Shown: in pieces, positions 6,262 to 49,339 of the stretch
Layout: each line of letters begins with the position of its first letter
Numbering within the stretch: the first letter of the stretch is position 1
Source: Escherichia phage BEK12A
Sequence record: MN158210.1
Length of the DNA stretch: 52,716 nt
Reading direction: 5' to 3' (one strand)
Program-made: the position numbers and the translations under genes
Notes under the pieces: model-generated
What the model saw: the letters and a program-made list of their open reading frames with translations, nothing else
What the model was told of the DNA's origin: nothing
The model's database searches: none

Positions 6262-6273
6262 GGAGAAATAAAC

Positions 6274-6786: not shown

Positions 6787-6792
6787 TAAATA

Positions 6793-6816
6793 TGGCGCTC
6801 ACTGAGCGCCTTTTTT
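6793..6816 (+). terminator. rho-independent terminator
   Basis: GGCGCTCACTGAGCGCC hairpin plus TTTTTTAT. Confidence 0.6.
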
Positions 6817-6831
6817 ATATTTGGGGTTATC

Positions 6832-7284: not shown

Positions 7285-7303
7285 GTTTAACAAAAAATGC
7301 TAT
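7285..7303 (-). promoter_or_regulatory. conserved 20-bp box, reverse orientation, abutting capsid gene leader
   Basis: GTTTAACAAAAAATGCTAT on the plus strand equals the box on the minus strand. Confidence 0.5.
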
Positions 7304-11046: not shown

Positions 11047-11064
11047 TTTTAACAAAAAGTGCTA
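11047..11064 (-). promoter_or_regulatory. conserved 20-bp box, reverse orientation, directly before chaperone RBS
   Basis: TTTTAACAAAAAGTGCTA followed by CAAGGAG and ATG. Confidence 0.5.
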
Positions 11065-11079
11065 CAAGGAGAAATTAAA

Positions 11080-17348: not shown

Positions 17349-20300
17349 ATGGCTGAAAATATGATAACTGGCAGTAAGGGCGGAAGCAAAAAGCCATACG
17401 TGCCAAAAGAGATGGAAGATAACCTGATCTCGATAAACAAGATTAAAGTTTTGCTGGCTGTATCTGATGGCGAATGCGATCCAGATTTCACGTTGCGTGA
17501 TCTTTATCTTGATGATGTTCCGGTTATTGCCAGCGATGGCACTGTTAACTATGAGGGGGTAACGGCTGAATATAGACCAGGTACACAGACGCAAGATTAC
17601 ATCCAGGGGTTTACTGACACATCAAGCGAGGTGACAGTTTCGCGAGATATTACAGCAGACAATCCCTATATTATCTCTGTAACAAATAAAAATCTTTCTG
17701 CAATCAGAATCAAGATTCTGATGCCAGTTGGCATAAAACAGGAGGATAACGGCGATCTTGTTGGTGTAAGGGTTCAATATGCCGTAGATATGGCTGTTGA
17801 TGGCGGTTCTTATAACGAGGTTATGAGAGATGTAATTGATGGCAAGACAAGATCAGGATATGACCGCAGCAGAAGGATTGATCTTCCTAAGTTTGATGAG
17901 CGCGTTTTAATCAGGGTCAAGCGACTGACTCCAGACAGCACATCTTCAAAGGTGACTGATAAAATCAAACTGCAAAGTTACGCTGAGGTTGTGGATGCAA
18001 AATTCCGTTATCCTCTGACTGGCCTTGTATTCGTAGAATTTGACAGCGAATTGTTTCCTACGCAAATCCCTAACATTTCTATAAAAAAGAAATGGAAGAT
18101 TATTAATGTGCCAAGCAACTATGATCCAATATCTAGAGAATATCACGGGTCATGGGATGGGACTTTTAAAAAAGCGTGGTCAAATAATCCTGCTTGGGTT
18201 CTTTATGATCTGGTAACTAATCAGCGTTATGGACTTGACCAGCGAGAGTTAGGAATACAGATCGACAAGTGGAGCTTATACGAGGCTGGTGTTTACTGTG
18301 ATCAGAAAGTTCCAGACGGTAAGGGCGGTACAGAGCCTCGCTACCTATGCGATGTGGTGATCCAGAATCAGGTTGAGGCTTATCAGCTAATCCGTGACAT
18401 TTGCTCAATCTTTCGCGGAATGAGCTTTTGGAATGGAGAGAGCTTATCAATCGTAATTGATAAACCGCGCGATCCATCATACGTGTTTACTAATGAAAAC
18501 GTCATCAACGGTGATTTTCAGTACACAGCAGCAAGCGAAAAAAGCATGTACACGCAATGTAATGTGACGTTTGACGACGAACAAAACATGTATCAGCAGG
18601 ACGTAGAGGGGGTTTTTGATACTGAGGCGGCATTACGATTTGGATACAATCCAACAAGCATTACAGCGATCGGGTGTACACGCAGGAGCGAAGCGAATCG
18701 TCGCGGTCGGTGGGTTTTGAAAACAAACCTTAGAAGCACTACTGTAAACTTTGCTACCGGACTAGAGGGGATGATTCCATCCATAGGTGATGTGATTGCT
18801 ATCGCTGATAATTTTCAGAGCAGCAATCTAACGCTAAATCTTTCGGGCCGAGTAATGGAAGTTTCAGGCTTGCAAGTTTTCGTTCCGTTTAAGGTTGATG
18901 CGCGTCCTGGTGATTTTATTATCATCAACAAGCCGGACGGAAAGCCAGTTAAGCGAACGATCTCAAAGGTGAGCGCAGACGGAAAAACCATTGAGTTAAA
19001 TATTGGCTTTGGTTTTGATGTTAAGCCTGATACTGTTTTTGCGATTGACCGTACTGACCTTGCGTTGCAGCAATACGTTGTGACAACTATCAGCAAGGGT
19101 GATGACGAAAACGAGTTTACCTATTCAATCACGGCTGTAGAGTACGATCCGAACAAATACGACGAGATTGATTATGGAGTAAACATTGATGACAGGCCAA
19201 CTTCAATTGTTCAGCCTGACGTGATGGCAGCGCCTGAGAACGTGCAGATCTCTTCTTATTCTCGCGTCGTGCAGGGTGTAAGCGTTGAAACTATGGTTGT
19301 GTCGTGGGAAAAAGTGCCTTATGCATCGCTCTATGAAATGCAGTGGCGTAAAGGTGATGGAAACTGGCTGAATACACCACAGACCGCAAACAAAGAAATT
19401 GAGGTTGAAGGTATTTATTCAGGTAACTACCAAGTAAGGGTGAGATCTGTTTCTGCTTCCGGTTCTACGTCGCCGTGGTCAAAGATTGCAACCGCCACCC
19501 TGACAGGTAAAGTTGGCGAGCCAGGAGCGCCGATTAATCTTACAGCTTCTGATAATGAAGTTTTTGGCATTCGTGTCAAATGGGGTATGCCGGAAGGATC
19601 GGGCGATACGGCTTACATTGAGCTTCACCAATCGCCAGATGGGACGGTGGAAAACTCAAGTTTGCTTACGCTGATCCCGTATCCTCAATATGAGTATTGG
19701 CATAGCACGTTACCAGCGGGTCAAGTTGTATGGTATAGAATCCGTAGCGTTGACAGGATCGGCAACGTTTCCGGCTGGACTGACTTTGTTCGCGGCATGG
19801 CGTCAGATGATGTTGAATCTGTTTTAGGCGACATTCTGGACAAGATTTTTGATACCGAAGCGGGTCAAGAAATCAAAGAGAACGCCATAGACAGTGCAAA
19901 CAAAATCAAAGACCAGGCGCAATCAATCATCCAGAACGCATTGGCAAACGATGCCGATGTGAAGTGGACGCGAGTACAAAACGGAAAGCGTAAGGCTGAA
20001 TATGGTCATGCACTGGAGCTTATTGCTAACGAAACGGAGGCGCGAGTAACTCAAATCGAAGAGTTAAAGGCGTCAATTGATGAAGATATAGTTTCAAGTA
20101 TCAAAACCGTTCAGGAAGCGATTGCCAATGAATCAGAGACGCGAGCTACTCAAGTTCAGCAGCTTGATTCTAAATTTACGAAGGAAATAGACGGCGTAAA
20201 ACGAGATACGGCTGCAAGCATTGGCGAGGTAAGGCAAACCATTACCAATGAATCAGAAGCGCGTGCTCAAGCCGTTCAGCAGCTTGACGCTAAGTTCACG

Positions 20301-20927
20301 AAAGAGATAAACGACCTTGACGGAGTTATCAAAACAGAAGTCGAGGCTAACATCTCAGAAGTGAAACAGGCGATCGCCAATGAGACAGAGGCAAGGGTTC
20401 AGGCTGACCAGGCTTTAACAGCTAAATTCGGAGATGTTGAATCAGCACTAGCCGAAAAACTTGATTCGTGGGCTAACGTTAATTCTGTTGGCGCTAAGTA
20501 CTCTATGAAATTGGGCCTTACTTACAATGGTCAGAAGTACAGCGCAGGAATGATCATGCAGTTGTCGCAATCTTCTCAAGGCTTGATCTCGCAAATCTTG
20601 TTTGATGCTAACAGGTTCGCGATCATGACTAGCTCTACTGGCGGAACGTTTACTTTGCCTTTCGTTGTTGAAAACAACCAGGTTTTCATTAACAGCCTGC
20701 TAGTTAAAAACGGTTCAATTACAAATGCCATGATCGGTAATTATATTCAGTCGAATAACTTTGTTGCCAATCAGCAGGGTTGGAGGCTGGATAAAAACGG
20801 CAGATTTGAGAACTACGGAACTAGAGCGGGAGAAGGAGCTACAAAATTCACTAACGAAGGCTTAAAGGTGAAAGATGCAAATGGACGATTGAGAGTTGAG
20901 ATAGGGAGAATAACCGGAAGTTGGTAA
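17349..20927 (+). CDS. tail tip / central tail fiber protein (lambda gpJ-like host specificity protein)
   Basis: 1192 aa; follows M-L-K-I block; C-terminal coiled-coil repeats (NESEARA..VQQLD.KFTKEI repeated). Confidence 0.8.
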   Translation: MAENMITGSKGGSKKPYVPKEMEDNLISINKIKVLLAVSDGECDPDFTLRDLYLDDVPVIASDGTVNYEGVTAEYRPGTQTQDYIQGFTDTSSEVTVSRDITADNPYIISVTNKNLSAIRIKILMPVGIKQEDNGDLVGVRVQYAVDMAVDGGSYNEVMRDVIDGKTRSGYDRSRRIDLPKFDERVLIRVKRLTPDSTSSKVTDKIKLQSYAEVVDAKFRYPLTGLVFVEFDSELFPTQIPNISIKKKWKIINVPSNYDPISREYHGSWDGTFKKAWSNNPAWVLYDLVTNQRYGLDQRELGIQIDKWSLYEAGVYCDQKVPDGKGGTEPRYLCDVVIQNQVEAYQLIRDICSIFRGMSFWNGESLSIVIDKPRDPSYVFTNENVINGDFQYTAASEKSMYTQCNVTFDDEQNMYQQDVEGVFDTEAALRFGYNPTSITAIGCTRRSEANRRGRWVLKTNLRSTTVNFATGLEGMIPSIGDVIAIADNFQSSNLTLNLSGRVMEVSGLQVFVPFKVDARPGDFIIINKPDGKPVKRTISKVSADGKTIELNIGFGFDVKPDTVFAIDRTDLALQQYVVTTISKGDDENEFTYSITAVEYDPNKYDEIDYGVNIDDRPTSIVQPDVMAAPENVQISSYSRVVQGVSVETMVVSWEKVPYASLYEMQWRKGDGNWLNTPQTANKEIEVEGIYSGNYQVRVRSVSASGSTSPWSKIATATLTGKVGEPGAPINLTASDNEVFGIRVKWGMPEGSGDTAYIELHQSPDGTVENSSLLTLIPYPQYEYWHSTLPAGQVVWYRIRSVDRIGNVSGWTDFVRGMASDDVESVLGDILDKIFDTEAGQEIKENAIDSANKIKDQAQSIIQNALANDADVKWTRVQNGKRKAEYGHALELIANETEARVTQIEELKASIDEDIVSSIKTVQEAIANESETRATQVQQLDSKFTKEIDGVKRDTAASIGEVRQTITNESEARAQAVQQLDAKFTKEINDLDGVIKTEVEANISEVKQAIANETEARVQADQALTAKFGDVESALAEKLDSWANVNSVGAKYSMKLGLTYNGQKYSAGMIMQLSQSSQGLISQILFDANRFAIMTSSTGGTFTLPFVVENNQVFINSLLVKNGSITNAMIGNYIQSNNFVANQQGWRLDKNGRFENYGTRAGEGATKFTNEGLKVKDANGRLRVEIGRITGSW

Positions 20928-20954: not shown

Positions 20955-21569
20955 TTAATCATAGTGTGATGAATTTATAACCAAAACAGATGAAGCCGTG
21001 TAAATACCAACAGGACCAGAAGTTTGTGCAACCTGCCTAGATAAAGAATATACCCCGTTGCCATACGCGGCAGCTTGAGACTCAAATATCATGAATCCAC
21101 CTAAAGACGGATTACGCACAGAGTTTAAAGCTGTTAGTGACGGCATGATGGCGCAAGGGTATCCCAAGTTAACGTCAAAAGTGATCCCGCTTACAGATAC
21201 AAGTTTTGCATCTAAAGGCTTCATCTTTCCATGATAAACCATCTCACCATTAGCATTATAAAAAGCTATTCCGTGACTACCAGGAGGAGTAACCATATTG
21301 CTAAAAGCATAAACAAATACCTCACCTTGATTGTCTGACTTTTCTATCTTTATTGCGTGCTTCCCACCATTATTAAATTGAGTAAATGCTATGTATGATT
21401 TTGATGTTAACCTTACAAAAAAGAAGCACGGTATATTTATTGGTATAGAAGTATTAAAAACGGTTCCTGTTTTTGCTGATATTTTACCTTTATCTATAAG
21501 GTTAACAGGAGTGAAATCTGGACTTAACCACAATGATCCGTCTGGTTTTTTTATGCTCATCCCGTACAT
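20955..21569 (-). CDS. hypothetical protein, candidate receptor-binding protein
   Basis: about 204 aa (ORF-track start is TTG; first ATG at codon 5); last gene of lipoprotein-led leftward operon downstream of J. Confidence 0.4.
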   Translation of the reverse strand: MYGMSIKKPDGSLWLSPDFTPVNLIDKGKISAKTGTVFNTSIPINIPCFFFVRLTSKSYIAFTQFNNGGKHAIKIEKSDNQGEVFVYAFSNMVTPPGSHGIAFYNANGEMVYHGKMKPLDAKLVSVSGITFDVNLGYPCAIMPSLTALNSVRNPSLGGFMIFESQAAAYGNGVYSLSRQVAQTSGPVGIYTASSVLVINSSHYD

Positions 21570-21571
21570 TA

Positions 21572-21850
21572 TTACCCCCAAAAAGTATATATATATCTTG
21601 AGTCAGATCCAGAAAGTCCGCTCCATGTAACAGTATCACCGCTTACACCTAAACTTGGAGCGCCTGGATCGCCTCCTCGCCACGAATTCATTCCAACATA
21701 TATTGCTTTCAAAGACTTACCTGGAGGCCTGTTTGAGTAGGTCTTACTGCCGGATGATTGAGTAAATTTATCCAAGAAAAAAACTGGAGTTAAAAGGCCA
21801 GTAACATTTCTACCTTGCTCATCATATATTGCATACCCATATTCAGCCAT
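21572..21850 (-). CDS. hypothetical Gly/Ser-rich protein
   Basis: 92 aa, RBS GAGGTG; 3' end contains (TA)5 tract; coupled to lipoprotein gene stop. Confidence 0.4.
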   Translation of the reverse strand: MAEYGYAIYDEQGRNVTGLLTPVFFLDKFTQSSGSKTYSNRPPGKSLKAIYVGMNSWRGGDPGAPSLGVSGDTVTWSGLSGSDSRYIYTFWG

Positions 21851-22118
21851 TTTTGCACCTCAAATCAATGAATTTTCTTTCATCTTGCCAACGGTTGATA
21901 AATTTAACTTCTTTATTGTCAACGCTCAACCTGTATTGCTTTTGGCTGAATCTGTTTTCGCGGACCGCATTAATTTTAACTTCATGGAATCCGTTAACAG
22001 GGAATGTTTTAACGTTAAATTTTGCCGTGCAATCGATCTCCTTGAAGTTGCCAGTAGGCGAAGAAGAACATCCGGTCAGGGCGGCTACGGTGGCGATAAC
22101 TGCGATTAATTTTTTCAT
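21843..22118 (-). CDS. lipoprotein, candidate superinfection-exclusion (Cor/Llp-like) protein
   Basis: MKKLIAVIATVAALTGCSSS signal peptide with lipobox; RBS AAGGAG; first gene of leftward operon next to tail tip gene. Confidence 0.5.
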   Translation of the reverse strand: MKKLIAVIATVAALTGCSSSPTGNFKEIDCTAKFNVKTFPVNGFHEVKINAVRENRFSQKQYRLSVDNKEVKFINRWQDERKFIDLRCKNG

Positions 22119-22173
22119 CTTCAATACTCCTTAGTTGTTGTTGGCTGTAACTATACACGATCCGGCAAGCCGA

Positions 22174-22192
22174 GTTTAGCAAAAAGTGCTAT
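22174..22192 (-). promoter_or_regulatory. conserved 20-bp box upstream of leftward lipoprotein operon (variant GCTAAAC)
   Basis: minus strand reads ATAGCACTTTTTGCTAAAC, then 18 bp, then TATAGT. Confidence 0.5.
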
Positions 22193-22254
22193 TTGTTATT
22201 TTTTGTTTTCCGGTGTTATCGGATTTAAGACGGCGTAAATTTAGCGCAAATCTT

Positions 22255-22460
22255 AGCCAACATAAGAACAATAAATAATCAATAAAATAGATATATACAT
22301 ATAAAATCAATAGTTTATTTATTTATGTATGTATATTTGTTTTTTCTTGTTATCTGTGTTTCTTGTGGTTTTGGTTGTTTGTGGTGATTTTTCTTTCTGA
22401 GTATCTGTATGTGCCATCATTCATGTGTATGTATATAATCCGGCGTATCTGAGAGAACAA
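22255..22460. repeat. AT-rich noncoding repeat region A (homologous to 43890-44030)
   Basis: TATTTATTTATGTATGTATATTTG..TTGTTATCTGTG..TTGTGG..TTTGG..GTATCTGTATGTG shared with region B. Confidence 0.6.
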
Positions 22461-22561
22461 GGGAACAAGAAAAATAACACATATTAATCATTAACTTACT
22501 CGTCAAATTTGTTTTATTGCCATCTGAGAACGTTTAGAAAACAGAAAAAACAAAACAACTA

Positions 22562-22589
22562 TTGACTAAATCAACCAAATGGCTACAAT
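22562..22589 (+). promoter_or_regulatory. sigma-70 promoter (TTGACT-16-TACAAT) for recombination operon
   Basis: near-consensus hexamers about 30 nt upstream of the 22620 start. Confidence 0.6.
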
Positions 22590-22619
22590 GCACACACAAA
22601 GCAACGAGGAGCATTAAAG

Positions 22620-23675
22620 ATGAGTGATTTTAACGCCTATACTAGCGAAGAAATGAGTAACGAGCTTTATCACGATCCAGAAGCGTGGACGGCTGAATAT
22701 GTCAGCGGTTCCAGCCTGGCGGAGATTTACAGCACTTGCCCGGCGTACTGGAAGTACAAGCCTCGCCAGGAAACTAAGGCACTTGTTTTCGGTACGCAGT
22801 CGCATACCAATTTTGAAAGCAAGGAGTTATTCGAAAAAACATATCGCCGCGCACCGTCGCAGGATGATTTTAAAGATCTGATCACAAGTCAAACGGCGTT
22901 AGCCTCAAAGCTGAAATCTTTTGGCCTGAAAGGTACAACGGGTAAGCAATATCCAGAATTGCTGGAAATGCTGTACAAGTGCGGTGAGGATCTCAATGTA
23001 TGGTGGCTTATCGAAATGATGGCAGAATGCCAGGCCGCAGCGGACGGCGTGCAGTTAATCGACGCGAAAGATTATGATGCCTGTGTAGCGATGCGGCGCG
23101 TACTTGAGGCAATACCTGAGCATAATGCTTGCATGAATAGCCCAACCGCGCAGCGTGAAATGTCAATATTCGGGATCATCAATGGCGTAAAAGTTAAAGT
23201 GCGTCTTGATCACGTTGACGTAAACAAGGATGTAAAGGCCACAATCATTAACGGTTACGACGAAAAAGGCCGACCGATTTATGAAGAAGTCATCTATCCA
23301 GAAGCTGTGATTATCACTGACTATAAAACAACGGTTAGCGCAAATCCGGTTGACTTCCAGCGCCTGGCTTACAATCACGGCTATTATCTCAAAATGGCTT
23401 TGCAGCATGATTTATTTAAAAAGGCTTATCCAGACGAGGAAAGGCCAGTAATTGTGAGATTGCTTGCTCAAGAGAAGAAAGAGCCTTACTTGCCGCTCGC
23501 ATTCCGCATGAACATTGAGCAATTGAAGATTGGGCGTATCCAGTACATGAGCGTGATCAATAAGTTCAATGTTTGCCAGAAGTTAGATGAATGGCCTTCG
23601 TATGCAAACGGGCAGCCAGAAATTGATCTTGATACTCCTGATTGGGTCCGCGCCCAATTCAGGCAGTATCTATGA
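22620..23675 (+). CDS. PD-(D/E)XK family exonuclease (recombination exonuclease)
   Basis: RLDHVD ... VIITDYKT motif arrangement typical of RecB/lambda-Exo-like nucleases; followed by annealing protein and SSB. Confidence 0.55.
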   Translation: MSDFNAYTSEEMSNELYHDPEAWTAEYVSGSSLAEIYSTCPAYWKYKPRQETKALVFGTQSHTNFESKELFEKTYRRAPSQDDFKDLITSQTALASKLKSFGLKGTTGKQYPELLEMLYKCGEDLNVWWLIEMMAECQAAADGVQLIDAKDYDACVAMRRVLEAIPEHNACMNSPTAQREMSIFGIINGVKVKVRLDHVDVNKDVKATIINGYDEKGRPIYEEVIYPEAVIITDYKTTVSANPVDFQRLAYNHGYYLKMALQHDLFKKAYPDEERPVIVRLLAQEKKEPYLPLAFRMNIEQLKIGRIQYMSVINKFNVCQKLDEWPSYANGQPEIDLDTPDWVRAQFRQYL

Positions 23676-24447: not shown

Positions 24448-24900
24448 ATGCACGTTATTACAGGTGAGATCCGAAAAGAGCCAAAAGTAAAGCAAATGCC
24501 TAACGGCAGCACGCTATATGTTGTTGAGCTTTCAGAACGATATAAAGACCGTGAAGGCAATTGGCAGTATACAAACTATGTGTTTTTCTTTAACGCGAAA
24601 ACAGACGGCCTGAATGGTTGGTATGCTGAGGCGTTCCAGGTAGGCAAGGTTATTTCTGTTTCCTGCGAAACCTTGCGAGTTGAAACGCGAGAATACAACG
24701 GAAAGATTTACAGCACCGTGCAGCCTGGCGGATTTGCAAGCCTGCTATTTAGCCAGCGCGGAGAAAGTCAGCAACAATATCAGCAGCGAACGCAAGGAGG
24801 CTGGGGGCAACCACAACAGCAACAGCAACAAAACGCTCAACAGCAGCCGCAGCAAAGCAATCAGCCTCCGATTGACTTTGACGATGATATACCATTCTGA
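24448..24900 (+). CDS. ssb: single-stranded DNA-binding protein
   Basis: OB-fold-like N-terminus, Gly/Gln-rich linker and C-terminal acidic tail PIDFDDDIPF diagnostic of SSB. Confidence 0.85.
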   Translation: MHVITGEIRKEPKVKQMPNGSTLYVVELSERYKDREGNWQYTNYVFFFNAKTDGLNGWYAEAFQVGKVISVSCETLRVETREYNGKIYSTVQPGGFASLLFSQRGESQQQYQQRTQGGWGQPQQQQQQNAQQQPQQSNQPPIDFDDDIPF

Positions 24901-24903
24901 TAA

Positions 24904-24936
24904 CAAAAAGCCCCGCATGTGCGGGGCATTTTTTTA
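24904..24936. terminator. bidirectional rho-independent terminator
   Basis: GCCCCGCATGTGCGGGGC flanked by A-run and T-run between convergent ssb and tail fiber genes. Confidence 0.7.
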
Positions 24937-27333
24937 GTTAAGAGTAGTAGGATTGTTGATTAGCTTTGACAGCAACTCTTTTAACTCTGCAACCTCCTTT
25001 TCAAGTTTTGATATTCTTTCTTTGTTATCAACATCACGAGCGCGAAGCGCTTTTATTGCAGCCAGTCCATCCATCAGCAGCGGATTAGTGTCAAGAGTCA
25101 TAATTCCAGATACAGAATCGCTATGAACATACTCCCTATCTATCATCATGGCATCTTGAGCTATTATTCCGCGTCTTGCACTCCTTTCGTTGCTATCAAA
25201 TGTATACCTAAATAATTTGAAGTTCATCCTTGATATATTATCTAGCGCGCATTCAACATTAAGATTTCCTTTAACATCCTTGAATCTAATATCAGAGGTT
25301 CCAGACTTCTGTAATGTGTTCCAAGGCTTAGTTGTTTTGGCTACCTTCGGATCTCCTGTATCGTTATATCTAGTGTATGCATTCCCAGCCGTGTCAATCC
25401 AGAATTGAAATATCCTGTATTTATCATAGGATGATTGAAAACCACCTCCATTTGCAGGAGCCCACTTAGTACCGCTTAGATTATCACTTATAAACTGACA
25501 TCCGGCGTTTGTTATATCATTAGCAAGGCTTTTTACTTGACCAACTCCATATTTTGATGCTACAGGATGCCAAACCCAACCACTCCACTTCCACGAACCA
25601 GAAGCCTTGTCATAACTCCTTGAATAGTAAGATGGATCGTCAATAGGGTAATAATATTGATTTGCATGTTCTACCCCGTTCGCAGTAGAGCTTGTAACAA
25701 GAAGAACGCCAGCTTTTTGTACTGGATAGTTATTTTGAGGAGTTGCGTTAGCATTTGCACCCTGATAGTAATAACCAAAATTACTATAACCATATAAGTC
25801 ATTTAGGTTTCCGCTTAATGCACCCCTTTGCTGCCTCATTAAATTTAGGTTGTCTCTTGCCGACTCTGCTGATTTTGAACCAGTACCCCCCTTGCTTATT
25901 GGTAAAGCTATATCAGATTTCGATGTAGAATCCCACATTCCCCAATCGCCATTATTTTTTACGAAAATTCGCTTTGTTCCATCAGCACTTGAAACGACGG
26001 TCTCACCGGATGCATCAGTTCCCTGCACCAATCTATCTACGCCAAGATTCACCTTTGTAGTTTTCACATCTGACACTGAAATAGAATTTCCGATGAAATT
26101 ACCGCTAATGCTGAAATTTCCATCAATGTCAAGACCTGCATACTTGTTAACAGAGCTGTCAGCATTTGACAAATGAAGTGTTAACCATTCCTTATTGTCT
26201 CCGCGTATTTCACCATAAAACCTATATCCAAGCCTTTTTTGACCAGATGTATTATTCAGATACCCTGACAATATGCCAGCCGCAGCTTGCGGTGAGTCGC
26301 TTTTCTTAACAAGATTAATGTTTTGAAATTGAGGGGTATTATCATCTCCAAGCCCTATCCTTGTTCTGTATGTGTCAGTTGCCTCCTGAGAATAAAATGC
26401 AGACCATGCTGACCATACTTGTCTTGTTGGATCGTACCATCTCGAATAAAAGTAAGCCTGAGAATTGTAAGGCATGTAAATTTGATGGCAGGCATCGTTA
26501 CCGTTAGCCCTGTTTGAGATAACTTGCAAAGATCCGGCCAATTTTGCTGGATACCCCCTTTCAGGAGTAGCTAAAGCACTATCACCTTGAAAGTAAAGAC
26601 CAGCTTGCTCACCCTTAAGATTATCTATGTTTGTCTCATCAAGATTAACCCATGATTGATAGTATGCGCTTAAATTCTTTCGTGAGACAACCTTATCAGC
26701 AAGATCATTAAGATTTTGAGACTTAACAAGAAAATTACCAGGTTGAATGCTTTCTGCATACTGCTTAGCTTTATCTTCGCTTGCTTTTGCTGCATCCTGA
26801 CTACCCTTAGCGGCTGTTGCAGAATTTGCCGACGCATCTTGACTGGCCTTTGCAGCATTCTTGAATTGCTCGGCGTCATTTCTTGCATTAACAGCATTTG
26901 TTTCGCTTATTTTTGCAGCTTCCGCGCTTTGTTTTGCTGATTCAGCGCCTTGCTTCACCTGATTTACAAGATCTTTCAACCCATCAAGATCGAAATCTCT
27001 AAAAAATTCAAGCGCGTCAGCGATCTCTGTTTCCTTGCTTTGATAGTAACGCAGCGTTTCCGCTACGTCCTGCGCCAGCCCGTCAACCGTTAACGAGTCA
27101 TGAAGCAAGATCAGGTAATTTGTCTTCTGAACTACCGCGCCGCCAGTAGTAATTGCGCGAATGCTTGTATCGCTAATCACTTCTGTAATCACAGCAGCTT
27201 GCAAAGGTTGAGTAAGAAAGAAAATAGTTGCGCCTGGGCGAATCAAGGTTAATTGCTCACGCCATTTTGTGTCGTAACCAGTTACATAACCTTGCGCGTC
27301 CATAGACGCTTGGCCTTGTCTGTAAATTGCCAT
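24934..27333 (-). CDS. side tail fiber with C-terminal intramolecular chaperone (peptidase S74-like) domain
   Basis: 799 aa; C-terminus [21 protein letters not shown]...[12 protein letters not shown] resembles auto-cleaving chaperone domain of T5 L-shaped fiber / endosialidase; RBS AGGAGG. Confidence 0.75.
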
Positions 27334-27350
27334 TTGTAAAATCCTCCTAA

Positions 27351-27370
27351 ATAGCACTTTTTGCTAATGA
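27351..27370 (+). promoter_or_regulatory. conserved 20-bp box (variant), opposite orientation to adjacent tail fiber gene
   Basis: ATAGCACTTTTTGCTAATGA immediately upstream of the fiber RBS on the other strand. Confidence 0.4.
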
Positions 27371-27398
27371 CAATGCAGATAATAGCATTTTCAAATGC

Positions 27399-27422
27399 AA
27401 AAAAAAACCCCGCATAAGCGGG
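27399..27422 (-). terminator. rho-independent terminator of primase operon
   Basis: minus strand CCCCGCTTATGCGGGG followed by TTTTTTTT. Confidence 0.65.
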
Positions 27423-27439
27423 GCAATACTAGCGGAGTT

Positions 27440-28369
27440 TTATAGTAGTGATTCAGGCTTATAGAGTTTTCTTTCTACGCCCTGTTTAAAATTATCGTTA
27501 ACAGGCATCATTATGTCAAGACCTCTTTCCTCTGCTGCGATTATCACATCACGATCATCTTTCCGGCAGACTACGCGCATTCTTCTTTCTCCTTTATATC
27601 TATGCGCAACCATTTCAAGATTTGAAGGAGTAAAGCAGGCCCACACCTCTTGACCAGTTGACAAATGAACATGCTGGGAATCAACCCAATCAAGGCACAA
27701 ATAGATCGTCTTATCTGTGCTACCTGTTTTAACAACAGATCCGCGCGTGTAGTCGCGAGCTAAAAACCAATCCTTTCCATCCTCATCAATGAAAAGCACG
27801 TTACACATTTCATCATCCAGCCCGTCATCATGCACCAGGTGACAAGGTAGCGCGTGAATGTATCGACCATCCTTGACGCCGCAATCATAATAACAATCTT
27901 CCGGCGGATATATCCCCTCATAAACGCTTAAGGGTGTGCGATCGAATTTTAATGTTTTTGCCATCACTTTTTCGCAGCATTCATGACTTGCCTGTTTCCC
28001 GAACGAGTAACCAGAAGAACGCGAAGCGCGCTTGTTTGCTCTGATCCTGTAATCCTGCGGCACTTTTCCGAGGAAGCGGCCCAAAATGTTGATGGCCTCG
28101 CTGTAAGGTTCGCCAGTTAATTTCATTAACCAACCGATCCCCGTGTCGTTACCGCATACGTTGCAGATCGCGCCGCCATCGCCCTCTTCATTTAGCTTAT
28201 CAGTCCATCTAAAACGATCCTTACCGCCGCAGTGTGGGCAAGGCTGATGCTTTTTGTTGAAAACATCGCTATGCAGTCCGCAAATGCTTTGTAGTGCTTC
28301 ACGCCATAACCCCTTCATATATGGCAAAACGTCTTCTTTCTGATAGGTCATAAAGTTTTCAGTATTCAT
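27440..28369 (-). CDS. DNA primase (zinc-ribbon primase domain)
   Basis: CPHCGGKDRFRWTD...CNVCGN zinc-binding motif typical of primase-helicase Zn ribbons; start taken at MNTENF downstream of a hairpin; start uncertain. Confidence 0.6.
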   Translation of the reverse strand: MNTENFMTYQKEDVLPYMKGLWREALQSICGLHSDVFNKKHQPCPHCGGKDRFRWTDKLNEEGDGGAICNVCGNDTGIGWLMKLTGEPYSEAINILGRFLGKVPQDYRIRANKRASRSSGYSFGKQASHECCEKVMAKTLKFDRTPLSVYEGIYPPEDCYYDCGVKDGRYIHALPCHLVHDDGLDDEMCNVLFIDEDGKDWFLARDYTRGSVVKTGSTDKTIYLCLDWVDSQHVHLSTGQEVWACFTPSNLEMVAHRYKGERRMRVVCRKDDRDVIIAAEERGLDIMMPVNDNFKQGVERKLYKPESLL

Positions 28370-28381
28370 GGCAAACCCCAA

Positions 28382-28417
28382 TAAAAAAGCCCAGCAAATA
28401 TTATCATTTCGCTGGGC
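28382..28417 (-). terminator. terminator / attenuator hairpin between HTH gene and primase
   Basis: minus strand GCCCAGC-15 nt loop-GCTGGGC followed by TTTTTTAT. Confidence 0.4.
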
Positions 28418-28424
28418 CTTATCA

Positions 28425-28901
28425 TTAGCTATTCGTGCTGTTATCACCTTTGTAGAATCGTCCGCCTGGTTCGTAGTCTGAATTTTTGACTACGCGCAAC
28501 ATTTCGTATTTGTCGCAACGGGTAGTAAGAGGCTTGCCGTTAGAATCAAACCGCAGATCTGGACGACAAAACGAGGCGCGGTATCCTTTGCATCCATTAT
28601 ATTTGTAGTCGTTATGCACCTTTTGTGCTCCAGCGGCTGAAATCATACCACGCTTTCGCCATTGGTTAACAACTTGCTGAGATACGCGCAGACGTCGAGC
28701 CATAGCAGGAACGCCGCCGTAATACTCGATCAGAATGTCAAGGCGAGATTTCAGGCTTGCTTTTACCTCATCTCGCAGGATAAGAAATCCGGTTCGGTGT
28801 TTTCGTGGCTTTTTGTCTTTACCTCGTCGCGTTCCGTTGTTACCGTTAATAGTGCGCTTGTCGATCTCACCCGTAGACACTGCAATTCGTGCATCTTTCA
28901 T
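28425..28901 (-). CDS. HTH DNA-binding protein (Cro/YdaS-like helix-turn-helix)
   Basis: YGGVPAMARRLRVSQQVVNQWRKRG motif; RBS GAGGTG; first gene of leftward operon. Confidence 0.5.
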   Translation of the reverse strand: MKDARIAVSTGEIDKRTINGNNGTRRGKDKKPRKHRTGFLILRDEVKASLKSRLDILIEYYGGVPAMARRLRVSQQVVNQWRKRGMISAAGAQKVHNDYKYNGCKGYRASFCRPDLRFDSNGKPLTTRCDKYEMLRVVKNSDYEPGGRFYKGDNSTNS

Positions 28902-28913
28902 CTAGTCACCTCA

Positions 28914-28965
28914 TAGCATTTTTTGTTAAAACAGTTTATTGTAATGAGTCTATTATATACTCCAA
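28914..28965 (+). promoter_or_regulatory. conserved 20-bp box plus -10-like TATTAT upstream of helicase operon
   Basis: ATAGCATTTTTTGTTAAAAC, 18 bp, TATTAT; divergent from HTH gene. Confidence 0.55.
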
Positions 28966-28988
28966 ATGGCATTTTTTAAAGGTTTAAG

Positions 28989-30986
28989 ATGATTCCAAAT
29001 ATCGAAAAACAAATATCGGCGTTAGGCGAGGCAGTAATAAAAAGCATCCAAGAGCGATTCACGGTTGGCAATATAGTGCCTTATCCTTATCAGTGCGTTG
29101 CGTATGCCGAGATCGCAAAGCGCATGAAAAACTATGAGCATCCTTTCTTTGTTAAGGCTTCTGTGTCGGCTGGTAAAACATTGATGTTTGCGATGGTTGC
29201 GGCGCAATGCCGCAAGATGGGATTGAAAATGATGGTCCTTGCTCGCCAGGCTGAAATTGTTGATCAGGATTCAGAAGAGATCAGCAATCTTGGCGTGCCA
29301 AACTCAATCTATTGCGCCGGACTGAAAACAAAAAGCGCATACTTTCCGATCGTAGTCGGTTCTGAGGGCACTGTAGTAAACGGATTGTTTAAGTCGTTAG
29401 GTGATTATGTTCCGCACGTTATCGGTATTGATGAATGTCACCAGGTGGATTGGGAGGATCTCGCTGATGCGATAGAAAATAATGAATCTTACCAGCAGAT
29501 GACCACTAAGAAGGATTTGCCTGTACTGATTGGAGAAGAACAGCAATTTGATTCCAATGGCGATCCAATGTTCGGAACAGGGCGCACACAGTACACCGTA
29601 ATAATCATGGAAATGATGCGCAGGTGTCGCGAGGCATACGGGCATGAATTGCGAATATTCGGTATGACTGGATCTGAGTTTCGCGGCGTGGTTCCAATAC
29701 TGGTTGAAGATAAGAACAAAAAGGGATTCTGGCGTGAGCAGGTGACTAACATAGACACAAACTACTTAATCAAATTTGGTTCGGTAGTGCCAACAAATTT
29801 CGGCGACGTAGGCGACCTGGGGTATGACCTTTCAGAGTTCGAAGCCAGTAGCGAGGATGGCGTTTCAGACTTTGACGCTAAAACATTGCGCAAGATGGAA
29901 GAAAAGATCCATCAAGACGCAACAATGACACAGAAAATCATGGCTAAAGTCCATGAGATATGCAAAGACAGGAACGGAGTTTTAGTTACATGCGCAGGGG
30001 AAAGGCACTGCAAGGAGGCCGCCGCCGCACTGCCGCCAGGCGTTGAATACAGGATCATAACTGGCAAGACTGGAGACAATCAGCGTAAAGAGTGGCTAAG
30101 GGAGGCATACGAGGGAAAAGTAAAATACATCTTCCAGGTACAGGCGCTTACCACTGGCGTTAACGTTCCGTTTTGGGATACTTCTGTAATACTGAGAAAG
30201 ATAGGATCTCTAACATTGCTTATCCAGCTTTTGGGGCGCGGTATGCGACTGCTTAAGCAATGGCACATTGAGCAGGGATTCAAGAAAAAAGACCATCTTG
30301 TATTGGATTTTGCCGGTACTATGGATGAGTTAGGGGATTTGTATTTCGATCCAATCCTTGAGCAAGCGCAATTCCAAAAGAGATTTACAAACGGGAAAGA
30401 GCCTAAGACTTGTCCGATATGTGGAACGCTAAACAGCTTTTACGCTCGCCGATGTATGCACGTAGACGATAACGGGAAGAGATGCGAGCATTTTTGGACT
30501 TACAGAATTTGCGAGGACCAGGTAGATCCGAGAACGAAAAAGATAATCAAGCGCGGTTGCGGAACAAAAAATGACGTAGTGGCGAGAGTATGCCGTTGTT
30601 GCGATATTTCTCTTGTCGATCCTAACGAGAAGTTAAGCGGCAAGCACTACACCAAAAACGATTGGTGCAACGTTAAATCTTTCCGCGTTGATATGACGAA
30701 AAACCAGAAAGGAATTGTTTTTTGCTATGAGCTTGAGGCCAACGGCGACACGTTCAAGGCATACGAAAGATTTTTCCCTGAGTCAGAAAGCAACATTTGC
30801 CGGACGATATGGAGAAAAATAGCATTGCAGCACATACCGGATCGCAAGATTGCTGGTATGGTGGCGAGCTATAGAAATGCGCGTAAAATAATGTCATACG
30901 CTCATCACATCATGCCTCCTGTACGCGTAACGCATCGCAAAAACGGCAAAGGTGAGGATAACATTGCAAAACGGGAGTTTGTTTAA
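28989..30986 (+). CDS. SF2 DNA helicase (DEAD/DEAH-box type)
   Basis: Walker A SVSAGKT, motif II GIDECHQ; C-terminal Cys-rich zinc-finger-like region. Confidence 0.8.
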   Translation: MIPNIEKQISALGEAVIKSIQERFTVGNIVPYPYQCVAYAEIAKRMKNYEHPFFVKASVSAGKTLMFAMVAAQCRKMGLKMMVLARQAEIVDQDSEEISNLGVPNSIYCAGLKTKSAYFPIVVGSEGTVVNGLFKSLGDYVPHVIGIDECHQVDWEDLADAIENNESYQQMTTKKDLPVLIGEEQQFDSNGDPMFGTGRTQYTVIIMEMMRRCREAYGHELRIFGMTGSEFRGVVPILVEDKNKKGFWREQVTNIDTNYLIKFGSVVPTNFGDVGDLGYDLSEFEASSEDGVSDFDAKTLRKMEEKIHQDATMTQKIMAKVHEICKDRNGVLVTCAGERHCKEAAAALPPGVEYRIITGKTGDNQRKEWLREAYEGKVKYIFQVQALTTGVNVPFWDTSVILRKIGSLTLLIQLLGRGMRLLKQWHIEQGFKKKDHLVLDFAGTMDELGDLYFDPILEQAQFQKRFTNGKEPKTCPICGTLNSFYARRCMHVDDNGKRCEHFWTYRICEDQVDPRTKKIIKRGCGTKNDVVARVCRCCDISLVDPNEKLSGKHYTKNDWCNVKSFRVDMTKNQKGIVFCYELEANGDTFKAYERFFPESESNICRTIWRKIALQHIPDRKIAGMVASYRNARKIMSYAHHIMPPVRVTHRKNGKGEDNIAKREFV

Positions 30987-31405
30987 TGGCTATAACTGAT
31001 AAAGGCGATTATCTTGAGTTTTACGAAAGGGATCCAACCGACACGAGAAGGGAAGTTAATCACCAGATAGATAGTTTTCAGTGGTTGACTTATGCTCATC
31101 CTTATTTGCTGGCGTGGCATACGGTAAACGAGAATGAGAAGTCTAAAGCAACGGCGATGATTGATCAGCAGTCCGGCTTGGTTAAGGGAGTAAGCGATTT
31201 CATCATCCTGATTGGTTTAAACGGAAAATACCCCTTTGCAGCGATTGAGATCAAACGAGTGAATAAATCAGGCAAGGGGAAAGCATCACCAGTCAGCGAT
31301 GAACAAAAGGCTTTTTTGCGTCGCGTTCGCAGCTTAGGAGGATTCGCTGCGGTAGCCTACGGATTCAATCAGTTTAAGTTGGCTATTGAATACATGCTTA
31401 AATAG
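30986..31405 (+). CDS. VRR-NUC domain nuclease
   Basis: GVSDFIILIG...AAIEIKR arrangement (D..E.K) typical of VRR-NUC. Confidence 0.6.
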   Translation: MAITDKGDYLEFYERDPTDTRREVNHQIDSFQWLTYAHPYLLAWHTVNENEKSKATAMIDQQSGLVKGVSDFIILIGLNGKYPFAAIEIKRVNKSGKGKASPVSDEQKAFLRRVRSLGGFAAVAYGFNQFKLAIEYMLK

Positions 31406-31446
31406 CACTTTTTGTTAAAACTGGCGCGATGGATTGCGCCATAATA
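31402..31446 (+). promoter_or_regulatory. conserved box - hairpin - ATAATA module
   Basis: ATAGCACTTTTTGTTAAAAC, hairpin GGCGCGATGGATTGCGCC, ATAATA; stop TAG of upstream gene inside box. Confidence 0.6.
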
Positions 31447-36129: not shown

Positions 36130-36173
36130 AATATACCCGACACTAGGCCGGGCGTTTTAACAAAAAATGCTAT
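36130..36173 (-). promoter_or_regulatory. conserved box - hairpin - TATATT module (leftward)
   Basis: minus strand ATAGCATTTTTTGTTAAAAC, GCCCGGCCTAGTGTCGGG, TATATT, then CATCGAAACGAA box. Confidence 0.6.
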
Positions 36174-41764: not shown

Positions 41765-41809
41765 TAATATACCATTCAGGCGCACATCGTTTTTAACAAA
41801 AAGTGCTAT
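41765..41809 (-). promoter_or_regulatory. conserved box - TATATT - CATCGACAACGAA module (leftward)
   Basis: minus strand ATAGCACTTTTTGTTAAAAAC, then 17-18 bp, then TATATT. Confidence 0.6.
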
Positions 41810-49299: not shown

Positions 49300-49339
49300 C
49301 ACGAATTGCTAAACGCGGGGTTATCGGCCCCGCTATAAT
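49296..49339 (+). promoter_or_regulatory. variant conserved box - hairpin - TATAAT module
   Basis: ATAGCACGAATTGCTAAAC, GCGGGGTTATCGGCCCCGC, TATAAT; stop TAG in box. Confidence 0.45.

What the first reader, a model, noticed from the sequence alone, without database searches (positions are those of the whole stretch)
24934..27333. Side tail fiber with intramolecular chaperone domain encoded outside the structural module, convergent with ssb
The 799-aa leftward gene has a C-terminal domain characteristic of auto-cleaving intramolecular chaperones of trimeric fibers (T5 L-shaped fiber / endosialidase type). It lies about 4 kb from the tail genes, in an operon with an HTH protein and primase, and has a reverse-oriented box at its leader. 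This suggests a mobile host-range cassette with distinct regulation.
Basis: partly seen in the sequence, partly recalled or inferred. Interest (0 to 1): 0.5.

Follow-up and report, generated by a model that had tools for sequence, protein, structure and literature searches.

The report
T1-type phage lateral tail fibre gene
This is the ordinary lateral (side) tail fibre gene of a T1-like coliphage, with a self-cleaving folding domain at its end, sitting where all phages of this family keep it; the only fresh detail is an oddly oriented regulatory box in front of it.

Summary
The window is Escherichia phage BEK26 (MN158216.1, Drexlerviridae, Warwickvirus). The 799-aa leftward gene (24934-27333) is real and is already annotated as a tail fibre. 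Its C-terminus is a genuine Peptidase_S74 intramolecular chaperone. The Pfam hit is above the curated cut-off, Ser680/Asp681/Lys685 are invariant in 123/123 homologues, and the predicted fold matches solved chaperone domains. The predicted Thr679|Ser680 cut mirrors T5 pb1.

The position between ssb and primase, about 4 kb from gpJ, is the fixed family-wide lateral-fibre locus. Its conserved 5' end and hypervariable remainder were published in 2021. BEK26's fibre is a three-part mosaic whose distal half is closer to a phage of another genus than the flanks are.

"Operon with HTH and primase" is doubtful. Strong terminator hairpins separate HTH from primase and primase from the fibre, and the fibre has its own conserved candidate promoter.

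The "reverse-oriented box" is real. It is a reversed copy of the published T1-family 21-nt repeat, abutting the ribosome-binding site. It is conserved in 6 of the 9 fibre leaders compared (four genera); reversed copies also precede the head gene and follow the tail-tube gene in BEK26 and T1.

Verdict: observation correct, thing already known, low interest. The reversed box is a modest untested lead.

The parts
24934..27333 (-). Lateral tail fibre gene, 799 aa plus stop (GenBank QGH77482.1, 'tail fibers protein'). Precursor 88.0 kDa.
   Evidence: PHROG tail fibre families at E 1e-96
26689..27333 (-). aa 1-215: conserved N-terminal virion-anchor domain (about aa 1-125) followed by an Ala/Ser/Gln-rich helical stalk.
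   Evidence: aa 1-171 match the N-terminus of the Klebsiella phage depolymerases 7LZJ/7VYV at E 5.6e-57. This is the only part conserved across Drexlerviridae (PMC8594841).
26311..26685 (-). aa 217-341: first knob-like domain.
   Evidence: PHROG 6578 best stretch is 217-341. It is paralogous to aa 509-590 at 35% identity, E 8e-13.
25534..25926 (-). aa 470-600: second knob-like domain, R-pyocin-fibre type.
   Evidence: Weak phmmer hits to 6CT8/6CL6. AF2 model of aa 470-799 has pLDDT 73. Its best Foldseek hit is the R1 pyocin fibre 6CL5, E 1.4e-4, prob 0.99, but with low TM-score.
25297..25533 (-). aa 601-679: distal tip preceding the cleavage site; presumed receptor-binding end of the mature fibre.
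   Evidence: Module table. Position relative to Ser680. The receptor-binding role is inferred by analogy with T5 pb1 (PMC4690869).
24937..25296 (-). aa 680-799: Peptidase_S74 intramolecular chaperone domain ending in a long C-terminal helix. Predicted released fragment 13.7 kDa. The Ser680 codon is 25294-25296 and the Lys685 codon is 25279-25281.
   Evidence: Pfam PF13884 above cut-off. S680/D681/K685/G722/Q726 invariant in 123/123. phmmer hit to 8HQZ_d, an L-shaped tail fibre, E 4e-5. AF2 pLDDT 85. Foldseek hits 7DC3 (TM 0.70, E 1e-5), 3GW6, 4UW8, 3GUD.
27343..27348 (-). Shine-Dalgarno AGGAGG, 9 nt before the ATG at 27333.
27351..27367 (+). Reversed copy of the T1-family repeat: ATAGCACTTTTTGCTAA on the + strand, a perfect TAGCA-N5-TGCTA palindrome. 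It lies in the fibre leader, 2 nt from the SD. It is identical over 19 nt to the copy at 22176-22194.
   Evidence: (I5). Conserved at this place in T1, LHE71, IME253, GS166 and tinuso.
27379..27387 (-). Candidate extended -10 promoter TGCTATTAT for the fibre gene (inferred, not shown).
   Evidence: The same ATGCTATTATCTGC is found in Fulano1, G29-2, tinuso and Klebsiella phage F13. IME253 has TGCTACAAT. T1 and LHE71 have TTGCAA-17-TAAAAT at this place.
27398..27424 (-). Intrinsic terminator between primase and fibre: GCCCCGCTTATGCGGGG followed by T9.
   Evidence: dG -14.7 kcal/mol, z -3.2. Conserved in 9 relatives and annotated as a terminator in Sip and G29-2.
24910..24927 (.). Bidirectional intrinsic terminator shared by ssb (+) and the fibre gene (-).
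   Evidence: dG -17.7 and -17.4 kcal/mol, z about -4.2 on both strands.
28383..28419 (-). Hairpin plus T6 between the HTH gene stop (28425) and the primase ATG (28369).
   Evidence: dG -26.2 kcal/mol, z -5.65. Annotated as a terminator in phage Sip.
27440..28369 (-). DNA primase gene (context).
28425..28901 (-). Cro/YdaS-like HTH transcriptional regulator gene (context). It is a candidate binder of the repeat, but this is untested.
24448..24900 (+). ssb gene (context), convergent with the fibre gene.

Best explanation
The gene encodes the lateral (side) tail fibre of a T1-like siphovirus.

Domain order (shown):
- a conserved N-terminal anchor of about 125 aa that docks the fibre on the tail
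- an Ala-rich helical stalk
- two paralogous knob domains separated by a beta-rich segment
- a distal tip
- a C-terminal S74 intramolecular chaperone

Processing (inferred from T5 pb1 and K1F endosialidase): three chains associate through the C-terminal helices. The chaperone templates folding of the distal trimer. Ser680, activated by Lys685, then cuts the Thr679-Ser680 bond. This releases a 13.7-kDa fragment and leaves a 74-kDa mature fibre with its receptor-binding tip exposed.

Function (inferred): the fibre probably mediates reversible first contact with a surface glycan (O-antigen or LPS). gpJ and the downstream receptor-binding locus mediate irreversible binding.

Locus (shown): the gene sits at the family's fixed fibre locus between ssb and primase. 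Host-range variation arises by recombination downstream of the anchor. BEK26 combines a Warwickvirus-type anchor, a tonijn-like middle and a Fulano1-like (Hanrivervirus) distal half.

Transcription (shown in part): terminators on both sides are seen in the sequence. A separate unit with its own sigma-70-type promoter is inferred. A reversed copy of the family's quasi-palindromic repeat lies between that promoter and the SD. Its role is not known; an operator function is my hypothesis.
For: Identity and annotation:
- 100% match to BEK26 MN158216.1, where the gene is annotated as 'tail fibers protein'.
- PHROG tail fibre families at E 1e-96.
- The N-terminal 171 aa match 7LZJ/7VYV at E 5.6e-57.

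S74 chaperone:
- Pfam S74 hit above the gathering score.
- Ser680, Asp681, Lys685, Gly722 and Gln726 are invariant in 123/123 C-termini.
- The S-x4-K spacing and the preceding Thr are identical to T5 pb1 Thr1263|Ser1264/Lys1269 (PMC4690869).
- phmmer hit to the 8HQZ L-shaped tail fibre, with the Ser and Lys aligned.
- AF2 model of the domain has pLDDT 85. Its top Foldseek hits are only intramolecular chaperone domains: 7DC3 (TM 0.70), 3GW6, 4UW8, 3GUD.

Family context:
- 2152 homologues were found. All of the top 120 carry PF13884, mostly on ~50-kb contigs.
- Synteny holds in T1, tinuso, Sip, tonijn and Fulano1.
- The locus is described in the literature (PMC8594841).
- The TLS paper reports a 78-kDa virion structural protein in connection with Gp55, which HHpred links to T5 pb1; I take Gp55 to be the TLS counterpart of this fibre, which I did not check by alignment or map (PMC11447400).

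Mosaic:
- Same-genus phages are 96-98% identical in the flanks but lose homology at aa 105-127.
- tonijn is 89.7% identical over aa 179-435.
- Fulano1 is 91.5% identical over aa 431-798, while its flanks are only 76-79% identical. The module table agrees.

Transcription unit:
- Terminators.
- Conserved leader elements.
Against: - Nothing here shows cleavage, presence in BEK26 virions, or the receptor.
- The isolation host, K514, is as far as I know a K-12 derivative without O-antigen. On that host the fibre may be dispensable, as proposed for the family.
- The promoter assignment is weak. The generic sigma-70 scan finds no site in the leader, and its hit count overall is not above shuffles.
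- ATGCTATNAT occurs twice in the window, and 17% of shuffles reach that count.
- Primase has no visible promoter of its own. Its upstream hairpin must therefore be read through, so the fibre could also receive read-through transcripts.
- The 330-aa multi-domain model gave only low TM-scores.
Confidence: 0.88

Rival explanations
1. One reading: the fibre is the third gene of an HTH-primase-fibre operon, driven by the promoter upstream of the HTH gene and therefore expressed with early replication genes.
For: - All three genes are co-oriented.
- A 10/12 sigma-70 match (TTTAAA-17-TATAAT) lies upstream of the HTH gene at 28980-28952.
- Primase has only 20 nt between the upstream hairpin and its ATG, so at least that hairpin must be read through. 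This shows that terminators here can be leaky.
Against: - Two strong hairpin-plus-T-run elements separate the genes (-26.2 and -14.7 kcal/mol, z -5.65 and -3.2).
- The primase/fibre terminator is conserved in 9 relatives.
- It is followed by conserved promoter-like sequence, a near-consensus TTGCAA-17-TAAAAT in T1.
- In Klebsiella phage F13 the upstream neighbour is ssb, not primase, yet the terminator and ATGCTATTAT leader persist.
- T1 late genes are described as terminator-flanked 'transcriptons' (PMC11447400).
Confidence: 0.25
2. The whole gene is a self-contained mobile host-range cassette (a moron-like insertion) that landed among replication genes in this phage.
For: - Lower GC (0.40-0.41) and opposite skew over 25-27 kb.
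- The distal sequence is shared with T5-like and Queuovirinae phages.
Against: - The locus and the 5' ~315-430 nt of the gene are conserved and syntenic in every Drexlerviridae phage examined, including T1.
- Homology breakpoints lie inside the gene, after the anchor, not at its borders.
- No integrase, transposase or flanking repeats are present.
- The skew simply reflects the minus-strand orientation.
Confidence: 0.05
3. The protein is an enzymatic tailspike or depolymerase rather than a fibre.
For: - The N-terminal 171 aa are 60-70% identical to Klebsiella phage capsule depolymerases 7LZJ/7VYV.
- S74 chaperones also serve endosialidase tailspikes.
Against: - Similarity to the depolymerases ends at aa 171. 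Their beta-helix part does not align.
- No glycosidase, lyase or beta-helix Pfam domain is detected.
- The remainder consists of knob-type domains like R-pyocin fibres.
Confidence: 0.05
4. The S74-like domain is a degenerate remnant that is not cleaved.
For: The Pfam score is only modestly above threshold (26.5 against 22).
Against: - The catalytic Ser and Lys, and other signature residues, are invariant across 123 homologues that are otherwise 30-99% identical.
- The fold is predicted with confidence and matches solved active domains.
Confidence: 0.05

Closest known systems
Lateral tail fibre locus of Drexlerviridae (T1 fibre AZS32460.1; BASEL phages; TLS Gp55, which I take to be the TLS counterpart without having checked it)
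   Same: - Same position between the recombination/ssb genes and primase.
- Same conserved N-terminal anchor and same hypervariable remainder (PMC8594841).
- The TLS paper reports a 78-kDa virion structural protein in connection with Gp55 and an HHpred link to T5 pb1 (PMC11447400).
   Different: - BEK26's particular module combination has no full-length match above 51% identity among the listed hits (P0012).
- T1's own fibre ends in PF25670 rather than S74.
- tinuso splits the function over several genes.
[quoted passage not shown]
   Same: - C-terminal S74 intramolecular chaperone with a Thr|Ser scissile bond and a Lys five residues on.
- C-terminal coiled-coil helix.
- Role as a dispensable O-antigen-binding side fibre (PMC4690869).
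- T5-like Salmonella phage SE11 shares aa 143-636 at 49% identity.
   Different: - The T5 fibre is much longer (1396 aa).
- It attaches through a different N-terminus and has a bullet-shaped tip not detected here.
- Its gene lies in the T5 structural region.
K1F endosialidase endoNF chaperone (3GW6), GA-1 neck appendage (3GUD), eukaryotic MyRF ICA domain (7DC3)
   Same: Same fold for aa 668-799: Foldseek TM 0.70 to 7DC3, and probabilities of 0.82-0.97 to 3GW6, 4UW8 and 3GUD. Same Ser/Lys dyad.
   Different: The passenger domains are unrelated: sialidase beta-propeller, appendage, and transcription factor respectively.
Klebsiella T1-like phage capsule depolymerases (7LZJ, 7VYV, 7VZ3)
   Same: Homologous N-terminal anchor over aa 1-171, E 5.6e-57.
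   Different: Those proteins carry a depolymerase body. BEK26 carries knob domains and an S74 chaperone.
T1-family 21-nt direct repeat aaATAGCACnnnTTGnTAAAA (TLS DR1-18)
   Same: The leader box has the same core sequence. The window holds 17 copies of ATAGCA-N5-TGYTAA.
   Different: - Published copies are described as pointing with transcription, about 76 nt upstream of start codons.
- The fibre-leader copy is inverted and lies 17 nt from the ATG.
- It lacks the -10-like hexamer that follows normal copies at offset 38.
- No copy at the fibre leader is listed in the TLS table.

Membership tests
Peptidase S74 / intramolecular chaperone auto-processing domain (PF13884) | Match to the family profile above the curated threshold | tested here: met
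   PF13884 matches aa 680-735 at 26.5 bits against a gathering score of 22, E 8.2e-6.
Peptidase S74 / intramolecular chaperone auto-processing domain (PF13884) | Catalytic Ser-Lys dyad with S-x4-K spacing at the start of the domain | tested here: met
   Ser680 and Lys685 (SDIRFK) are invariant in 123/123 homologous C-termini. They align with the S and K of the 8HQZ fibre. The geometry matches T5 pb1 T1263|S1264/K1269.
Peptidase S74 / intramolecular chaperone auto-processing domain (PF13884) | Fold of solved chaperone domains (alpha/beta body, hairpin, C-terminal coiled-coil helix) at the extreme C-terminus | tested here: met
   AF2 model has pLDDT 85 with a terminal helix over aa 749-793. Foldseek hits are 7DC3 at TM 0.70 and E 1e-5, then 3GW6, 4UW8 and 3GUD. 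This is a monomer model, so the trimer was not assessed.
Peptidase S74 / intramolecular chaperone auto-processing domain (PF13884) | Autoproteolytic release after trimer folding | not testable with these tools
   Needs expression of the wild type and S680A. Predicted products are 74.3 and 13.7 kDa.
Drexlerviridae lateral tail fibre | Conserved N-terminal anchor shared across the family | tested here: met
   aa 1-125 to 1-200 are 50-95% identical in hundreds of Drexlerviridae proteins. E 5.6e-57 to the 7LZJ N-terminus.
Drexlerviridae lateral tail fibre | Syntenic locus between the recombination/ssb genes and primase/helicase | tested here: met
   Gene order exoVIII-Erf-ssb | fibre | primase-HTH | helicase in BEK26, T1, tinuso, Sip, tonijn and Fulano1. 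Matches the published description.
Drexlerviridae lateral tail fibre | Component of the virion that binds a surface glycan | not testable with these tools
   Only indirect evidence is available. The TLS paper reports a 78-kDa structural protein in connection with Gp55. The BASEL paper states that the glycan-binding role has never been directly demonstrated for this family.
T1-family 21-nt direct repeat (leader box) | Consensus aaATAGCACnnnTTGnTAAAA | tested here: met
   27349-27369 reads AAATAGCACTTTTTGCTAATG. The 17-nt core matches; the 3' AAAA is replaced by ATG.
T1-family 21-nt direct repeat (leader box) | Oriented with transcription, about 70-76 nt upstream of the start codon, followed by a -10-like hexamer at fixed distance | tested here: not met
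   The copy is inverted relative to the fibre gene and lies 17 nt from the ATG. TTTCAA occupies offset 38-43, where 12 of the 14 forward-oriented copies in BEK26 have nAnnnT and the other two have it one base earlier. It is a sequence member but a functional outlier.

The most novel reading that the evidence does not exclude
Proposal:
- The family's 21-nt repeat may be a 17-bp quasi-palindromic operator (TAGCA-N5-TGYTA) for a dimeric phage DNA-binding protein. The Cro/YdaS-like HTH protein encoded two genes upstream is one candidate.
- At normal copies the site is centred about 42 bp upstream of the inferred start, 30 bp upstream of a -10-like hexamer. That is the geometry of class II activation.
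- The inverted, promoter-less copies may act as repressing or timing operators for late structural genes. They lie between promoter and SD in the lateral fibre leader and overlap the candidate -10 of the major head gene. A third inverted copy follows the tail-tube gene.
- The fibre copy is conserved in four genera and the other two in BEK26 and T1.
- One protein would then switch genes on at some sites and hold back virion genes at others.

The geometry and conservation are shown here. Binding and effect are pure inference.
Probability: 0.25. Interest if true: 0.5.

Novelty: already known. Interest (0 to 1): 0.17.

Why it matters
For the fibre itself, little is new. It is an annotated gene of a well-described type at a well-described locus. 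Its mosaic make-up is one more example of the module shuffling that sets host range in T1-like phages. That has practical use only as a catalogue of swap points (after aa ~105-145 and at aa ~431-435) for engineering fibres.

The repeat is listed in the TLS paper as an open question for T1-like phages. The inverted copies at late-gene leaders, together with the fixed distance to a -10-like hexamer at normal copies, give that question a concrete and cheap test: gel shift with the HTH protein, and inversion or deletion of the box.

Tried and rejected
- A search of the 5.8-billion-protein collection with only the C-terminal 215 aa returned 2 hits, because of the word index. The full-length query was needed.
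- Foldseek with the 330-aa multi-domain monomer model gave low TM-scores (0.2-0.27) and only a hint of pyocin-fibre similarity. The chaperone had to be modelled alone.
- phmmer of the whole protein against PDB did not find the chaperone domain. The isolated C-terminus did.
- I considered that the leader box acts as an RNA hairpin masking the SD. The predicted leader fold is -5.9 kcal/mol with z -0.47, no better than shuffles, so I rejected this as the main explanation.
- I considered that the inverted box is a divergent promoter making antisense RNA to primase. The -10-like hexamer expected at offset 38 is absent in both BEK26 (TTTCAA) and T1 (TACCTG), so this is unlikely. It stays possible for the copy after the tail-tube gene, which has TAGATT/TAAGAT.
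- The generic sigma-70 scan gives no more hits than shuffles and none in the leader, so the promoter call rests on conservation only.
- A full-text search for the motif strings found no relevant paper.
- No paper on BEK26 was found.
- PMC10373560 on Warwickvirus attachment says nothing about this fibre.
Full report
**What the window is.** Megablast of 24500-29000 gives a 100% full-length match to Escherichia phage BEK26, MN158216.1. This is a 52,716-bp record of Drexlerviridae, Tempevirinae, Warwickvirus, and the window is a rotated copy of it (window position = record position + 22177). The gene in question is annotated there as 'tail fibers protein' QGH77482.1.

**Checking the observation.** The ORF list shows 24934..27357 on the minus strand.
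- The biological start is the ATG at 27333, giving 799 aa. It is preceded by AGGAGG at 27343-27348, and homologues begin with the same MAIYR sequence.
gpJ (17349-20927) ends 4.0 kb away. A Cor-type exclusion cluster on the minus strand follows, then exoVIII, Erf and ssb on the plus strand. The fibre, primase and a Cro/YdaS-like HTH protein are on the minus strand, followed by helicase on the plus strand.
- ssb and the fibre converge on one bidirectional terminator, 24910-24927, with -17.7 and -17.4 kcal/mol on the two strands.

**The chaperone domain.**
- Pfam PF13884 (Peptidase_S74) matches aa 680-735 above its gathering score, 26.5 against 22 bits.
- In an alignment of the C-termini of 122 homologues plus BEK26, Ser680, Asp681, Lys685, Gly722 and Gln726 are invariant (123/123).
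- The motif T679-S680-D-I-R-F-K685 has the same Thr|Ser scissile pair and the same Ser-to-Lys spacing as T5 pb1 (Thr1263|Ser1264, Lys1269). In pb1, S1264A blocks auto-proteolysis, and only the cleaved form competes for the receptor (PMC4690869).
- The isolated C-terminus hits a solved L-shaped tail fibre (8HQZ_d, E 4e-5) with the Ser and Lys aligned.
- An AlphaFold2 model of aa 668-799 has pLDDT 85. Its significant Foldseek matches in the PDB are exclusively intramolecular chaperone domains: MyRF ICA 7DC3 (TM 0.70, E 1e-5), endoNF 3GW6, T5 pb1 4UW8 and GA-1 3GUD.
- The predicted products are 74.3 kDa (aa 1-679) and 13.7 kDa (aa 680-799), from an 88.0-kDa precursor.
- Cleavage itself is inferred, not shown.

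**Rest of the architecture.**
- aa 1-171 match the N-terminus of the Klebsiella phage depolymerases 7LZJ/7VYV (E 5.6e-57). Similarity stops where their enzymatic body begins.
- An Ala/Ser/Gln-rich stalk follows.
- aa 235-320 and 509-590 are paralogous (35% identity, E 8e-13).
- The second copy weakly resembles R-pyocin fibre knobs by sequence. It also does by fold, with 6CL5 at E 1.4e-4 and probability 0.99, but TM-scores are low because the query was a multi-domain monomer model.
- No enzymatic domain is detected.

**The locus is the family's normal fibre locus.**
- tblastn finds relatives in 1247 phage records. Almost all share only the first 16-29% of the protein.
- T1, tinuso, Sip, tonijn and Fulano1 all have a fibre gene between ssb and primase in the same orientation.
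- Maffei et al. 2021 describe exactly this. In Drexlerviridae the flanks of the lateral tail fibre locus (recombination genes, primase/helicase) are conserved and syntenic. Only the far 5' end of the largest fibre gene is conserved and the rest is hypervariable. The fibres are presumed to bind O-antigen without being essential, which 'has never been directly demonstrated' (PMC8594841).
- The TLS reannotation reports a 78-kDa virion structural protein in connection with Gp55, which HHpred relates to T5 pb1 4UW8 (PMC11447400). I take Gp55 to be the TLS counterpart of this fibre but did not check that by alignment or map.
- Among 2152 homologues in the large protein collection, all of the top 120 carry PF13884. 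They sit mostly on ~50-kb contigs, with some on ~60-kb (Queuovirinae) and ~107-kb (T5-like) contigs.
- The finding is therefore correct but already known.

**Cassette swapping, quantified.**
- Same-genus phages tinuso and Sip are 96-98% identical in the flanks. They lose all DNA homology inside the gene at window 27018 and 26953 (aa 105 and 127) and regain it at the stop codon or terminator.
- tonijn extends to aa 144 and again matches aa 179-435 at 89.7%.
- Fulano1 belongs to another genus and its flanks are only 76-79% identical. It is nevertheless 91.5% identical over 24940-26042, which is aa 431-798.
- The protein module table agrees. P0010 shares the anchor and first knob (95% and 90%). 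P0003-P0009 share the second knob, tip and chaperone (88-99%) but lack the first knob. The best co-linear full-length match is 51% (P0012).
- The content of the locus also varies. T1's fibre ends in PF25670 without S74. tinuso has a 657-aa fibre without S74, plus a separate 224-aa ORF with a marginal S74 match. Sip, tonijn and Fulano1 are S74-terminated.
- So modules downstream of the anchor move between genera and families. The gene as a unit does not.

**Operon or not.**
- A hairpin plus T6 (28383-28419; -26.2 kcal/mol, z -5.65) lies between the HTH stop and the primase ATG.
- A hairpin plus T9 (27398-27424; -14.7 kcal/mol, z -3.2) lies between primase and the fibre.
- The latter is present in all nine Drexlerviridae leaders I compared, from Warwickvirus, Hanrivervirus, Tlsvirus, Tunavirus, Rtpvirus and a Klebsiella phage. 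It is annotated as a terminator in Sip and G29-2.
- Downstream of it, T1 and LHE71 have TTGCAA-17-TAAAAT. BEK26, tinuso, Fulano1, G29-2 and Klebsiella phage F13 share ATGCTATTATCTGC, an extended -10 (TGnTATTAT). IME253 has TGCTACAAT.
- I therefore read the fibre as its own terminator-bounded unit. This fits the 'transcripton' layout described for T1 late genes.
- This is inference. The generic promoter scan is uninformative. Primase evidently depends on read-through of its upstream hairpin, so some read-through into the fibre cannot be excluded.

**The reverse-oriented box.**
- AAARTGCYAT occurs 19 times in the window, against 1.3 expected. All copies are intergenic.
- It is the reverse complement of the 21-nt repeat aaATAGCACnnnTTGnTAAAA reported for TLS. 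That repeat has 18 intergenic copies, 'in the direction of transcription', about 76 nt upstream of start codons. It is also found in T1, Rtp and Rogue1. Its function is unknown and is explicitly listed as an open question.
- In BEK26 the stricter pattern has 17 copies against 0.025 expected. T1 has 18.
- Three things follow from my tabulation of these 35 copies.
  1. The core is a quasi-palindrome, TAGCA-N5-TG(C/T)TA. It is symmetric at four of the six half-site positions in 94-100% of copies, and at a fifth in 43%. The spacer is variable.
  2. Copies that point with transcription are followed at offset 38-43 (plus or minus 1) by a -10-like nAnnnT hexamer. Often CATCGA follows, and then the SD and the ATG at about 70-76 nt. 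This places the centre of the palindrome about 30 bp upstream of the hexamer, near -42. That is the geometry of class II activators (my inference).
  3. Three copies are inverted relative to the genes around them, at the same three places in BEK26 and T1.
     - One lies upstream of the major head gene (7287-7303; T1 15086).
     - One lies after the major tail protein gene (11049-11065; T1 18850).
     - One lies in the lateral fibre leader (27351-27367; T1 34902).
- The head and fibre copies lack the -10-like hexamer at offset 38 in both phages.
- The fibre copy abuts the SD, 11-24 nt from the ATG, in BEK26, tinuso, T1, LHE71, IME253 and GS166.
- The TLS table lists the head-gene copy (DR7, 'neg') without comment and lists no fibre-leader copy.
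An RNA-hairpin role is not supported.
- A plausible but untested reading is an operator placed downstream of the fibre promoter, which would give the fibre distinct timing.

**Verdict.** The protein is a bona fide S74-terminated lateral tail fibre. Its location and modular variability are textbook features of the family and are already published and annotated. The operon claim is doubtful. The reversed repeat is a small, genuine regulatory oddity worth a bench test.

Noticed in passing
window-wide; e.g. 31402-31418, 36157-36173, 41793-41809, 49296-49312: There are 17 copies of a 17-bp quasi-palindrome, ATAGCA-N5-TG(C/T)TAA, against 0.025 expected by chance. This is the published T1-family 21-nt repeat. 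Copies that point with transcription are followed at a fixed offset of 38-43 by a -10-like hexamer, and often by CATCGA. That places the palindrome centre near -42, which suggests activator-dependent promoters.
   Followed up: partly
7287-7303 (-) and 11049-11065 (-); T1 locus L012 15086 and 18850: Two further inverted copies of the repeat lie in the plus-strand structural module. One is directly upstream of the major head gene (7350-8324), where its end forms TGCTATCAT, an extended -10. The other is after the major tail protein gene. Both are conserved in T1.
   Followed up: partly
28383-28419 (-): A very stable hairpin (-26.2 kcal/mol, z -5.65) plus T6 lies between the HTH gene and primase, only 20 nt before the primase ATG. 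Primase therefore seems to depend on read-through or antitermination.
   Followed up: partly
22134-22620: A ~490-bp AT-rich non-coding stretch (GC about 0.38) lies between the Cor cluster and exoVIII. It has nested inverted repeats at 22270-22349 and T-rich direct repeats at 22190-22354. It could be an origin or a regulatory region.
   Followed up: no
20955-22124 (-): A leftward cluster lies right after gpJ. It comprises a Cor-like exclusion protein (21843-22124), an outer-membrane-protein family ORF (21572-21850) and a membrane-associated protein (20955-21581). It is preceded by a normal-orientation repeat at 22176-22192 that is identical over 19 nt to the fibre-leader copy.
   Followed up: partly
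L002 (tinuso) 5974-6939; L005 (Fulano1) 5340-6837: In some close relatives the fibre locus holds extra small genes. In tinuso these include a separate 224-aa ORF with a marginal S74 match (21.9 bits against 22). This points to split, two-component fibres at the same locus.
   Followed up: partly
GenBank MG065636-MG065687 (hits H44, H78-H82, H94): Fourteen records named 'Campylobacter phage' with host C. jejuni hit the locus query. Their fibre gene starts with the same T1-type anchor and aligns over up to 83% of the BEK26 fibre. The host attribution looks doubtful.
   Followed up: no
24814-24861 (+): There is a tandem CAACAG-type repeat near the 3' end of ssb, which encodes a Gln-rich linker before the acidic tail.
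   Followed up: no
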